Assembly: GCF_003334255.1 (NCBI RefSeq)
Contig: NZ_QOWU01000102.1
Reading direction: 5' to 3' (one strand)
DNA from: Escherichia coli
GTDB taxonomy: Bacteria > Pseudomonadota > Gammaproteobacteria > Enterobacterales > Enterobacteriaceae
Length of the DNA stretch: 6,185 bases
Shown: piece by piece, positions 3,982 through 4,989 of the stretch
Layout: the number at the start of each line of letters is the position of its first letter
Numbering within the stretch: the first letter of the stretch is position 1
Notes under the pieces: generated by a model
The model's input: the letters and a program-made list of their open reading frames with translations, nothing else
Database searches by the model: none
What the model was told of the DNA's origin: nothing
Program-made: the position numbers and the translations under genes

Positions 3982-4989
3982 ATGGATTTTGAATTTACGG
4001 GTGAAGAAACCCCGGAACAACTGGAAAAAATGCTGGAAGGGCTTGGAGATGTGGATATTGACGGTCACGAACAGGACTGCGTGACAGAGGCCGCCACAGA
4101 AAATCATGCGGATGAGGCAGCACAGACACAGACGGGCGATAACACTGCGGCACCGACGCCGGATGCCAGTGCTGAGCAGACGCAGGACGTGAAGGAGCCG
4201 GAGGCGAAGGGTGTGCTCACCCGCGATGGTAAACACGTCATTCCCTATGAAGTCCTTGAGGCTGAACGTTCCGGTAAGCAGCGGGCCGAACAGGAAGCCG
4301 CACTTCTTCGGGGACAGATAGCCGAAGAAAAACGCCTGGTTGAACTGCTGACGTCTCAGATCCACCAGGCCGGTATGAAACCCGCACCGTTACCGGAAAA
4401 CGAAAAAATCTCTGATGAGAAGATTGCCCGTATCAGGGATATGTATCCGGAAATTGGTGACGCGGTGGCTTCGCTCATCCGTAAAAATAACTATCTCCAG
4501 TCCCGTGTTCAGCAATCAGCACAGCAGGCAGAAGGTCATGGTGGTGAGGATTTATCACCGGTTCTTGATGCGATGAATGCCGTGCCGGTGCTGAAAACGT
4601 GGCAGAACTCCGATCCGGATCGCTTCTCGGTTGCCGTATCCATCGACGGGAAGCTCCAGAATGACCCCGCATGGAAAGACAAACCGCTCACTGAACGTTT
4701 CGCCGAAGTGGCCCGCCGTACGCAGCTCGCTTTCGGTGAAGCCAGTGAGCCGCCTTCTGATGACAAGGCAGACAACACGGATATCCGGAAAACGGCGGAA
4801 GAAAAAGTGAAAGCCGCTGAACGGGAGATGGCTGTGCCTGCTTCCCCGTCAGAGCTTGGCAACACGGCTTCCGTCGGAACCGGTGATAATTTTGAACGGT
4901 TACTTGGTGCTTCCCATACCGAAATTGAAGCCGCCATGCGAGGCATGACGGACGCTGAAATTGACGCGATTCTGGAAAAACTCGGGTAA
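3982..4989 (+). CDS. Putative scaffolding (head assembly) protein, 335 aa
   Basis: Long ORF from the track, positioned between portal and capsid. The protein is highly charged and low in complexity: a very acidic N-terminal ~75 aa (many D/E, almost no hydrophobic core), E/K/R/A/Q-rich helical-looking segments, and an amphipathic C-terminus (TDAEIDAILEKLG). No protease motifs. The call rests on composition and synteny, not on a recognised family. Confidence 0.65.
   Translation: MDFEFTGEETPEQLEKMLEGLGDVDIDGHEQDCVTEAATENHADEAAQTQTGDNTAAPTPDASAEQTQDVKEPEAKGVLTRDGKHVIPYEVLEAERSGKQRAEQEAALLRGQIAEEKRLVELLTSQIHQAGMKPAPLPENEKISDEKIARIRDMYPEIGDAVASLIRKNNYLQSRVQQSAQQAEGHGGEDLSPVLDAMNAVPVLKTWQNSDPDRFSVAVSIDGKLQNDPAWKDKPLTERFAEVARRTQLAFGEASEPPSDDKADNTDIRKTAEEKVKAAEREMAVPASPSELGNTASVGTGDNFERLLGASHTEIEAAMRGMTDAEIDAILEKLG

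What the first reader, a model, noticed from the sequence alone, without database searches (positions are those of the whole stretch)
3982..4989. Scaffold candidate with a strongly acidic, probably disordered N-terminal domain
The first ~75 residues (MDFEFTGEETPEQLEKMLEGLGDVDIDGHEQDCVTEAATENHADEAAQTQTGDNTAAPTPDASAEQTQDVKEPEAKG) are dominated by D/E/T/A/Q with almost no hydrophobic residues. Classical scaffolding proteins are helical and charged, but a long polyanionic N-terminal arm is unusual. It could mimic nucleic acid, for instance to keep DNA out of procapsids or to engage the basic interior of coat or portal, or it could act as a spacer. The C-terminal ~30 residues (EIEAAMRGMTDAEIDAILEKLG) look like an amphipathic helix pair, which is where coat-binding domains usually sit.
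Basis: partly seen in the sequence, partly recalled or inferred. Interest (0 to 1): 0.35.

Follow-up and report, generated by a model that had tools for sequence, protein, structure and literature searches.

The report
Stx-phage head scaffolding protein candidate
This gene sits between the portal and capsid genes of a Shiga-toxin-type phage and most likely encodes the temporary internal scaffold for head assembly; its acidic, floppy front end is normal for such proteins, as phage T7's scaffold has the same feature.

Summary
The ORF (3982-4989, +, 335 aa) and its acidic N-terminus are real: residues 1-77 carry 22 D/E against 3 K/R (net -19), and AlphaFold gives pLDDT around 50 or lower for residues 23-70.

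The window is the head-gene block of a 933W/Sp5-type short-tailed Stx phage, in the order TerL, portal, this ORF, major capsid protein.

The orthologue Sp5 ORF61 (90% aa identity) is experimentally essential. Its deletion gives no head-like particles and no packaged DNA, and anti-ORF61 antibody does not label virions. That paper left its role open and named ORF65 as the scaffold. ORF65 corresponds to phi24B gp64, which cryo-EM shows is a neck adaptor ring in the virion.

I therefore read this ORF as the uncleaved internal scaffold, on three grounds:
- It occupies the position of P22 gp8 and T7 gp9.
- It has a coiled-coil-like centre and a predicted C-terminal helix-turn-helix.
- It is not modelled in the phi24B virion.

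It belongs to a large unnamed family (phrog_479; 1283 clusters) in which the acidic arm is conserved as a property (median net -20.5). The arm is not unusual: T7 gp9 has net -18 over its first 75 residues.

Caveat: intact phi24B gp70 appears at about 2-9 copies per virion in purified-virion proteomics.

Verdict: an ordinary kind of protein in an unannotated family.

The parts
3982..4989 (+). CDS of the candidate scaffolding protein. 335 aa, pI 4.51, net charge -32. Orthologue of 933W L0115, Sp5 ORF61 (ECs1222, H0131) and phi24B gp70.
   Evidence: ORF and translation. The sequence is 100% nt identical to PhiR12_3 and about 92% to 933W and VT2-Sakai. It matches phrog_479 at E 8.7e-147. Genetics of the orthologue.
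3972..3975 (+). GGAG Shine-Dalgarno sequence, 6 nt upstream of the ATG.
   Evidence: Read directly from the sequence.
3982..4047 (+). Residues 1-22: moderately conserved N-terminal motif containing a short amphipathic helix (H11-20). Possibly a tethered binding motif.
   Evidence: M1, D2, T6, G7, E9, T10, E12 and L14 are invariant among 16 enterobacterial homologues. Group conservation is 0.59-0.62, against 0.25-0.48 in the linker. AF2 predicts a helix with pLDDT about 83.
4048..4209 (+). Residues 23-76: polyanionic, low-hydrophobicity, predicted-disordered linker. Sequence and length vary, but the charge is conserved.
   Evidence: Composition. pLDDT is below 50 with the 16-sequence MSA and about 46-60 with the 144-sequence MSA. 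The family-wide charge is conserved. phi24B MS peptides cover this region, so it is not cleaved off.
4210..4371 (+). Residues 77-130: the best-conserved element of the family. It comprises a beta-hairpin (KDGKHxIPYxVLxxxR; R96 invariant, P88 99%) running into a 41-residue helix.
   Evidence: conservation; E77-79, E86-88, H89-129, pLDDT 86-93.
4414..4539 (+). Residues 145-186: two further long helices. Together with 89-129 they form a coiled-coil-like centre, a plausible oligomerisation region.
   Evidence: AF2 helices. In one heptad register, 0.68 of a/d positions are hydrophobic, against 0.38 overall. The only PDB profile hits are coiled coils, at profile positions about 100-190.
4555..4731 (+). 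Residues 192-250: small, well-conserved helical bundle (L204, W207, DPD211-213, A218, D222, L225, P229, R239, F240).
4732..4884 (+). Residues 251-301: mostly flexible acidic linker containing one helix (265-282) and a conserved P286-x-S-L/P-S-D/E-x-G motif.
   Evidence: P286 98%, S288 89%; low pLDDT at 257-265 and 290-301.
4888..4986 (+). Residues 303-335: three short C-terminal helices, the last two forming a helix-turn-helix. M322 and L331 are conserved. Net charge of the last 30 residues is -3. This is the candidate coat-binding domain.
   Evidence: AF2 predicts H303-309, H312-320 and H324-334 with pLDDT 81-92. Conservation. Charge comparison with P22. phi24B MS peptides reach the C-terminus.
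1680..3824 (+). Portal protein gene (714 aa), immediately upstream.
   Evidence: phrog_156 portal, E 1.4e-252. phi24B gp72 cryo-EM.
5012..6185 (+). Major capsid protein gene, running off the window end (full length 404 aa). A GAAGGAG RBS lies at 4995-5001. The N-terminal 60 aa are basic (net +5).
   Evidence: phrog_334 major head protein. GP4 MCP 8h89, E 7.9e-40; charge.
3841..3872 (+). Terminator-like GC hairpin plus T-run, 17 nt after the portal stop codon, in the 157-nt portal-to-scaffold spacer.

Best explanation
The ORF encodes the internal scaffolding protein of a 933W/Sp5/phi24B-type podovirus with a T=9 head. It is of the uncleaved kind, which exits intact during packaging as in P22 and T7.

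Proposed mechanism, with shown and inferred steps marked:
1. The protein is needed to build any procapsid. This is shown for the 90%-identical Sp5 ORF61.
2. The central long helices oligomerise, and the conserved hairpin and helical bundle form the scaffold core. This is inferred from the prediction and from conservation.
3. [quoted passage not shown] This is inferred by analogy with P22 gp8. The charge polarity is the reverse of P22: an acidic helix-turn-helix against a basic MCP N-arm and Lys-rich inner loop.
4. The roughly 55-residue polyanionic disordered arm fills the procapsid lumen as a charged brush. It may engage the basic interior loops of coat and portal. It is pushed out by incoming DNA, so the protein leaves intact, since no protease is encoded. 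This is inferred; the only direct support is that the charge, not the sequence, is conserved across the family.
5. The conserved N-terminal helix at the end of the arm is a tethered contact for a partner, either the portal or another scaffold molecule. This is speculative.
For: Position:
- The window order is TerL, portal, ORF, MCP.
- The same family gene sits directly upstream of a PF13252 capsid gene and downstream of a P22-type portal gene (PF16510) in unrelated metagenomic contigs L002 and L003, and directly upstream of a PF13252 capsid gene in L004, whose contig begins at this gene. The same holds in Pseudomonas phage H66, where gp44 matches at E 5.5e-32.
- This position matches P22 gene 8 and T7 gene 9.

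Genetics (PMC5155283):
- Delta-ORF61 gives no head-like particles and 100-1000-fold less DNase-resistant phage DNA.
- The defect is complemented.
- Anti-ORF61 antibody labels neither wild-type nor mutant particles.

The competing published assignment falls:
- Sp5 ORF65 (H0135, L0119) corresponds to phi24B gp64, a dodecameric neck adaptor seen by cryo-EM in virions.
- It also has a weak match to GP4 gp81, which is present as 12 chains in 8jov.

Virion composition:
- The phi24B virion model has no gp70.
- The H66, P13374 and BcepIL02 records mark neighbouring genes as virion or structural proteins, but not this gene.

Architecture:
- The protein is acidic (pI 4.5).
- It is extended and helical, with a coiled-coil-like centre and a C-terminal helix-turn-helix.
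- Weak BFVD fold hits include four proteins annotated 'Scaffolding protein'.

No prohead protease was found by the Sp5 authors, and the phi24B peptides span residues 17-76 and 307-333, so the protein is not processed.

The charge pattern parallels T7 gp9. It is complementary to the basic MCP N-terminus across eight phage pairs.
Against: - There is no direct demonstration that the protein is present in procapsids.
- Intact gp70 is detected in purified phi24B virion preparations: 35 PSMs against 101 for portal in the batch digest, with a discrete gel band. It appears to be counted among that preprint's 15 'candidate structural proteins' (my reading; its Table 1 is an image).
- A scaffold-null mutant often gives aberrant shells or spirals, as in P22. 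Delta-ORF61 gave no particles, while spirals appeared in Delta-ORF65.
- Every functional assignment to individual segments is inference.
Confidence: 0.74

Rival explanations
1. The protein is a minor internal head protein that nucleates assembly at the portal vertex and stays in the virion at roughly portal-level copy number. It might be bound to the portal's internal Arg-rich loops through its acidic arm, and possibly leaves with the DNA. On this reading it is not a bulk scaffold.
For: - phi24B proteomics of purified virions finds full-length gp70. Length-normalised PSMs give about 9 copies in the batch digest, with portal set to 12. Gel slices show a discrete band just below the MCP.
- The portal has an unresolved internal Arg-rich loop, and there is unassigned diffuse density in the adaptor lumen that disappears on ejection.
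- Delta-ORF61 gives no particles at all, which would fit a nucleation factor.
- Failure of antibody to label virions is compatible with an internal location.
Against: - Gel-slice totals give only about 2 copies per 12 portal subunits (189 against 2125 PSMs), so the protein is sub-stoichiometric and the estimates disagree.
- About 41% of particles in that preparation were empty. A procapsid contamination of 1-4% would account for the signal.
- Portal-less mutants of Sp5 still make head-like shells, so a purely portal-linked nucleator should not be needed for shell formation.
- The H66 record marks the portal, MCP and other proteins as MS-verified virion components, but not the family member gp44.
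Confidence: 0.12
2. The protein is a dedicated assembly chaperone. It keeps the capsid protein soluble or folding-competent, but is not itself built into the procapsid.
For: - It is essential for any head-like particle, yet is never seen on particles by immuno-EM.
- It is acidic and largely disordered or helical, as many chaperone-like escorts are.
Against: [quoted passage not shown]
- Its traces co-purify with particles.
- Immuno-EM cannot see an internal protein.
Confidence: 0.08
3. ORF65 is the true scaffold, as published, and this ORF is a decoration, cement or ejection protein.
For: Delta-ORF65 gives spiral MCP polymers, a classical scaffold-null look.
Against: - The phi24B orthologue of ORF65, gp64, is resolved as a 12-mer neck adaptor attached to the portal in mature virions.
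- Loss of DNase-resistant DNA in Delta-ORF65 fits a head-completion defect.
- The capsid exterior is fully accounted for by MCP gp69, cement protein gp67 and the gp84 N-domain.
- An ejection or decoration protein would not be required for shell formation.
Confidence: 0.04

Closest known systems
Sp5 (VT2-Sakai) ORF61 / ECs1222 / H0131, 933W L0115 and phi24B gp70
   Same: These are orthologues, with about 90% aa and about 92% nt identity, in the same locus between portal and MCP. Sp5 ORF61 is experimentally essential for head formation and packaging.
   Different: The window copy is the PhiR12_3 variant (100% nt identity). None of these orthologues is annotated or discussed as a scaffold. Mondal et al. 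left the role open, and the phi24B preprint lists gp70 only in a supplementary table.
T7 gp9 scaffolding ('head assembly') protein, phrog_1052
   Same: - Same gene position: portal, scaffold, capsid.
- Similar size: 307 against 335 aa.
- Similar pI: 4.31 against 4.51.
- Similar overall net charge: -38 against -32.
- A strongly acidic N-terminal third: first 75 residues net -18 against -20.
- Not cleaved.
- The MCP N-terminus is basic in both.

   Different: There is no detectable sequence relationship: hhalign probability 0.25%, and the two fall in different PHROGs. The T7 head is T=7 and this lineage is T=9.
P22 gp8 scaffolding protein, phrog_648, PDB 2GP8
   Same: - Same gene position and similar size (303 aa).
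- A D/E/T/A/Q-rich N-terminus.
- A C-terminal helix-turn-helix that, in P22, binds the coat N-arm electrostatically.
- No protease.

   Different: - There is no sequence homology.
- The P22 helix-turn-helix is basic (last 30 aa net +5, with R293 and K296) and binds an acidic coat N-arm (D14, E15, E18). Here the helix-turn-helix is acidic (-3) and the MCP N-terminus is basic (+3 to +5), so the polarity is inverted.
- The N-terminal arm of P22 is much less charged (-8).
Pseudomonas phage H66/F116-type gp44, and the GP4 AXG67701 / BcepIL02 gp47 / Parlo gp61 group (phrog_8246)
   Same: - H66 gp44 is a clear family member: E 5.5e-32 to my family profile, and phrog_479 at 2.5e-89.
- The GP4 and BcepIL02 proteins match weakly over the C-terminal half (E 1e-5 to 6e-7 in a small search set).
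- All share the plan: a short N-terminal helix, a polyanionic low-complexity arm (first 75-80 aa net -12 to -24), a helical body, and a C-terminal 'MS..E...L' helix. All lie between the portal and a homologous T=9-type MCP.

   Different: All are annotated as hypothetical. In GP4, BcepIL02 and Parlo, small genes including a CsrA-like regulator separate the gene from the MCP. The Parlo protein does not reach significance against my profile.

Membership tests
phrog_479 (unnamed family; Stx-phage L0115 / F116-type gp44) | Full-length match to the family profile. | tested here: met
   E 8.7e-147 over residues 1-335 and profile positions 1-333. A profile search finds 1283 clusters at 50% identity with E <= 1e-3, mostly full length.
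Internal scaffolding proteins (functional class) | Required for procapsid shell formation. | tested here: met
   This is not my experiment. The published deletion of the 90%-identical Sp5 ORF61 gives no head-like particles and no packaging, and is complemented. Transfer to the window copy is by orthology.
Internal scaffolding proteins (functional class) | Present inside procapsids in many copies. | not testable with these tools
   No procapsid proteome or structure exists for this phage group in the literature I searched.
Internal scaffolding proteins (functional class) | Absent from mature virions. | tested here: inconclusive
   The protein is not modelled in the phi24B virion, and immuno-EM is negative. 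However, intact protein is detected at about 2-9 copies per 12 portal subunits in a purified preparation that contained 41% empty particles.
Internal scaffolding proteins (functional class) | Gene adjacent to, and upstream of, the major capsid gene, downstream of the portal gene. | tested here: met
   Seen in the window and in L001, L002, L003 and H66, and as the scaffold-MCP pair in L004, whose contig starts at the gene so no portal is visible.
P22 gp8 family (Pfam Phage-scaffold / phrog_648) | Sequence membership. | tested here: not met
   No Pfam hit for the protein or for any of 144 family members. hhalign against P22 gp8 gives probability 0.19%. P22 gp8 falls in phrog_648 and the query in phrog_479.
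P22 gp8 family (Pfam Phage-scaffold / phrog_648) | C-terminal helix-turn-helix coat-binding domain with basic contact residues. | tested here: not met
   A helix-turn-helix is predicted (H312-320 and H324-334, pLDDT 81-92), but it is acidic (net -3) where P22's is +5. The shape is shared and the chemistry is inverted. Binding itself was not tested.
T7 gp9 family (phrog_1052) | Sequence membership. | tested here: not met
   hhalign probability 0.25%. The two fall in different PHROGs.
T7 gp9 family (phrog_1052) | Acidic protein of about 300 aa with a strongly acidic N-terminal third, not cleaved. | tested here: met
   One search gives the composition of both proteins. phi24B peptides from both ends, and a gel position near the MCP, argue against processing.
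Structured DNA-mimic proteins (Ocr/ArdA type) | A rigid fold displaying acidic side chains in a DNA-like array. | tested here: not met
   The acidic segment is predicted to be disordered with both MSAs. There are no PDB sequence or fold matches to such proteins.

The most novel reading that the evidence does not exclude
The protein may not be a purely transient scaffold. A small, defined number of intact copies might stay in the mature Stx-phage head. One possibility is that the polyanionic arm is clamped on the Arg-rich internal loops of the portal, or sits in the unassigned density of the adaptor lumen, and leaves with the DNA. A second possibility is that its two similar terminal helices (N-terminal residues 9-21 and C-terminal residues 321-333) make it a bivalent cross-linker that helps set the unusual T=9 geometry.
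Probability: 0.1. Interest if true: 0.55.

Novelty: new member of a known kind. Interest (0 to 1): 0.3.

Why it matters
Short-tailed Stx phages spread Shiga toxin genes, and their head-assembly pathway is only partly assigned. The one genetic study gave the scaffold role to ORF65, which the 2026 phi24B cryo-EM preprint shows to be a neck adaptor. That leaves this essential, unassigned gene as the natural scaffold.

Naming it would annotate a large family that is labelled 'hypothetical protein' or 'unknown function' wherever I found a name or annotation. The family comprises phrog_479, with about 1300 clusters at 50% identity, plus the related phrog_8246 group in GP4, Bcep22 and F116-like phages. 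It would also give a defined target for in-vitro assembly of T=9 shells.

The acidic arm is not new biology. It adds a third, sequence-unrelated example beside T7 gp9 and P22 gp8, in a family where net charge is conserved while the sequence drifts.

Tried and rejected
Searches that found no characterised relative:
- Pfam on the protein and on all 144 aligned members found only chance coiled-coil and acidic-repeat hits.
- NCBIfam found nothing.
- PDB by sequence, with the single protein, the C-terminal 62 aa and the family profile, found only designed or natural coiled coils.
- Foldseek against the PDB had a best E of 0.5.
- hhalign of the family against T7 gp9 and P22 gp8 showed no relationship.

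Name mining also led nowhere. Every name given by a source in the 5.8-billion-protein search, in 10 distant clusters and in phage GenBank records was 'hypothetical protein', apart from one truncated cluster labelled 'DUF6682 family protein'.

BFVD Foldseek gave four weak hits annotated 'Scaffolding protein' (E 5e-3 to 0.2, TM below 0.2). I treat these as a hint only.

Ideas considered and rejected:
- Decoration or cement protein. The phi24B shell is fully accounted for by gp69, gp67 and gp84.
- Structured DNA mimic. The arm is predicted to be disordered.
- Chance low-complexity region. The property is conserved across the family.

I did not attempt a fused-chain AF2 co-fold of the C-terminal helices with the MCP. 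The tool returns no contacts or PAE, so the result could not be interpreted.

The N-terminal tryptic peptide of gp70 was not found in the stored part of the phi24B proteome file. That file is truncated, so this says nothing either way.
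Full report
WHAT IS IN THE WINDOW

The 6185-bp window is 100% identical at the finding's locus to Escherichia phage PhiR12_3. It is about 92% identical to 933W, VT2-Sakai (Sp5) and about 190 other short-tailed Stx-type phages.

The genes all lie on the + strand:
- Large terminase, cut by the window start and ending at 1680.
- Portal, 1680-3824.
- The finding's ORF, 3982-4989.
- Major capsid protein (MCP), starting at 5012 and running off the end.

A GGAG sequence lies 6 nt before the ORF's ATG.

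CHECK OF THE OBSERVATION

Residues 1-77 contain 22 D/E and 3 K/R, giving net -19 and pI 4.05. They are 61% D/E/T/A/Q. Only 12 residues are hydrophobic, and seven of those lie in the first 22.

The segment falls on the disordered side of the charge-hydropathy boundary. AlphaFold2 gives pLDDT below 50 for residues 23-72 with a 16-sequence alignment. With a 144-sequence alignment it still gives only 46-60 for residues 21-70, while the remainder rises to 80-96 (mean 78, pTM 0.47).

The feature is not chance. A profile search of 1.84 billion representatives finds 1283 clusters. In 146 of the best full-length ones, the part before the conserved hairpin has a median length of 85 aa and a median net charge of -20.5. 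In 99% it is net -8 or lower, although its sequence is barely alignable.

One refinement is needed. Residues 1-22 are a moderately conserved motif containing a predicted amphipathic helix. Only residues 23-76 are the variable polyanionic linker.

ANATOMY OF THE REST OF THE PROTEIN

- The best-conserved element is a beta-hairpin, KDGKHxIPYxVLxxxR (R96 invariant, P88 99%, L92 97%). It leads into a 41-residue helix, followed by two more long helices.
- In one heptad register, 68% of a/d positions in residues 89-186 are hydrophobic, against 38% overall.
- The only PDB profile hits are coiled coils over this stretch.
- A small conserved helical bundle covers residues 192-250, with pLDDT about 95.
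- A flexible acidic linker follows, with a conserved PxSLSD-G motif.
- Three short C-terminal helices come last, the final two forming a helix-turn-helix (pLDDT 81-92; M322 and L331 conserved).

EXPERIMENTAL LITERATURE ON THE ORTHOLOGUES

Mondal et al. 2016 (PMC5155283) deleted Sp5 genes systematically. ORF61 (ECs1222; H0131; 933W L0115; 89.9% aa identity to the window protein) is essential:
- Its deletion gives no head-like particles and 100-1000-fold less DNase-resistant phage DNA.
- It is complemented in trans.
- Anti-ORF61 antibody labels neither wild-type nor mutant particles.
- The authors wrote that they 'cannot assign a precise role'.

They gave the scaffold role to ORF65, because its mutant made spiral MCP polymers. 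ORF67 is L0121 and gene order is conserved, so ORF65 is H0135/L0119. This corresponds to the 187-aa product ending at L001:11751 and to phi24B gp64.

The 2026 phi24B cryo-EM preprint (bioRxiv 10.64898/2026.04.10.717836) resolves gp64 as one of two dodecameric adaptor rings attached to the portal of mature virions. Consistent with this, the ORF65 protein matches GP4 gp81 weakly (12 chains in 8jov). Loss of DNase-resistant DNA in Delta-ORF65 is also what a head-completion defect would give.

The published scaffold assignment is therefore very probably wrong. That leaves the scaffold role unfilled and ORF61 unassigned.

SYNTENY AND RELATIVES

The family gene lies immediately upstream of a PF13252 capsid gene in three distant metagenomic contigs; a P22-type portal gene lies upstream in two of them, and the third contig begins at the family gene. 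The same is true in Pseudomonas phage H66 (gp44, E 5.5e-32).

GP4, BcepIL02 and Parlo have homologous T=9-type MCPs. They carry at the same place a 313-325-aa protein with the same plan: an N-terminal helix, a polyanionic low-complexity arm, a helical body and a C-terminal 'MS..E...L' helix. The GP4 and BcepIL02 proteins match my profile weakly.

The H66 record marks its neighbours as 'verified by mass spectrometry as part of the virion', but not gp44. The gene order of portal, scaffold and coat is that of P22 (genes 1, 8, 5) and T7 (genes 8, 9, 10).

IS THE ACIDIC ARM UNUSUAL?

No.
- T7 gp9, annotated as the T7 scaffolding protein, is 307 aa with pI 4.31 and net -38. Its first 75 residues are net -18, and its most acidic 75-residue window is net -25.
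- P22 gp8 starts with a D/E/T/A/Q-rich stretch of net -8.

The window protein has net -32 overall and -20 in the first 75 residues, so it is of the T7 type. There is no detectable sequence relationship to either protein, and they fall in different PHROGs. The resemblance is one of design, not of family.

One real difference from P22 is charge polarity. The P22 C-terminal helix-turn-helix is basic (R293, K296) and binds D14, E15 and E18 of the coat N-arm (PMC9965877). Here the last 30 residues are net -2 to -6 and the MCP N-terminal 60 residues are net +1 to +7, in eight phage pairs. phi24B also has an interior-facing Lys-rich MCP loop and an Arg-rich internal portal loop, both unresolved. These are plausible partners for the acidic parts, but that is inference.

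THE CAVEAT

The phi24B supplementary proteome lists gp70 in the purified-virion sample:
- 35 PSMs in the batch digest, against 101 for portal, 42 for nozzle and 29 for adaptor gp64.
- A discrete gel band one slice below the MCP peak.
- Peptides covering residues 17-76 and 307-333, so the protein is intact and keeps its arm.

Length-normalised to 12 portal subunits, this is about 9 copies from the batch digest and about 2 from the gel slices. gp70 is never mentioned in the text and is absent from the model.

About 41% of particles in that preparation were empty. A few per cent of scaffold-containing procapsids would explain the signal. A small retained complement cannot be excluded, and that is the most novel reading still open.

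VERDICT

The ORF is most likely (about 0.74) the uncleaved internal scaffolding protein of the T=9 head of 933W/Sp5/phi24B-type phages.
- Shown: the protein exists, is essential for shell formation in the orthologue, is not a modelled virion component, and carries a family-wide conserved polyanionic disordered arm.

It is a new, unannotated member of a known functional kind, and the acidic arm is ordinary for podovirus scaffolds. The useful by-product is a correction of the Stx-phage head-gene map: ORF65 is the adaptor and ORF61 is the scaffold candidate. It also supplies a function proposal for a large 'hypothetical' family.

Noticed in passing
window 3841-3918 (portal-to-scaffold spacer, 3825-3981): A canonical-looking intrinsic terminator lies 17 nt after the portal stop: a 10-bp GC-rich hairpin at 3841-3866 followed by TTTTTTG. 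A second strong hairpin follows at about 3868-3918. The 164-nt spacer folds better than shuffles (z -2.56). This is odd inside a late operon. It may be read through by Q-modified polymerase, or it may act as an mRNA stability or processing element that sets the portal-to-scaffold/MCP ratio.
   Followed up: partly
window 4006-4044 and 4942-4980 (residues 9-21 and 321-333); also 4405-4440 (residues 142-153): The N-terminal helix motif (ETPEQLEKMLEGL) resembles the C-terminal one (GMTDAEIDAILEKL). Family sub-profiles align over 20 columns with hhalign P 1.6e-5 and probability 79%. Control slices give P >= 0.002, and the best control is a third similar motif (KISDEKIARIRD). This could mean two or three copies of one binding helix, or merely N-capped amphipathic helices.
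   Followed up: partly
L001:11188-11751 (Sp5 ORF65 / 933W L0119 equivalent; outside the window): The protein that Mondal et al. 2016 proposed as the Sp5 scaffold corresponds to phi24B gp64. Cryo-EM shows gp64 to be a dodecameric neck adaptor on the portal. It also has a weak sequence match to GP4 gp81 (8jov). The published label appears to be wrong.
   Followed up: yes
phi24B supplementary proteome (orthologue of window 3982-4989): Intact gp70 is present in the purified-virion sample at roughly 2-9 copies per 12 portal subunits by crude PSM counting, yet it is not discussed anywhere in the preprint's text.
   Followed up: partly
L002:5862-6877: In a distant relative (an ENA metagenome contig), two Tad2-like (PF11195) genes are inserted between the portal gene and the scaffold-family gene. 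Tad2 is a known anti-Thoeris protein. The portal-to-scaffold spacer therefore seems to be a site where accessory genes are inserted.
   Followed up: no
L005:5179-5376, L006:5598-5792, L008:5615-5797: GP4, BcepIL02 and Parlo each carry a CsrA-like regulator gene between the scaffold-like gene and the major capsid gene. H66 has one further downstream, among the head-tail genes.
   Followed up: no
window 5012-5191 (MCP residues 1-60) against window 4897-4986 (scaffold last 30 residues): Charge polarity between the scaffold C-terminus (acidic, -2 to -6) and the MCP N-terminus (basic, +1 to +7) is the reverse of P22 (+5 and -3). It holds in all eight phage pairs of this lineage that I examined.
   Followed up: partly
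window 1-18: The large terminase gene is cut by the window. By alignment with PhiR12_3, its annotated start lies about 26 nt before window base 1. The ATG at 19 listed by the ORF finder is therefore internal.
   Followed up: yes
window 3976-4365, minus strand: A 129-codon antisense ORF overlaps the acidic-arm coding region. It has no support and is most simply a by-product of the GA-rich sense codons.
   Followed up: no
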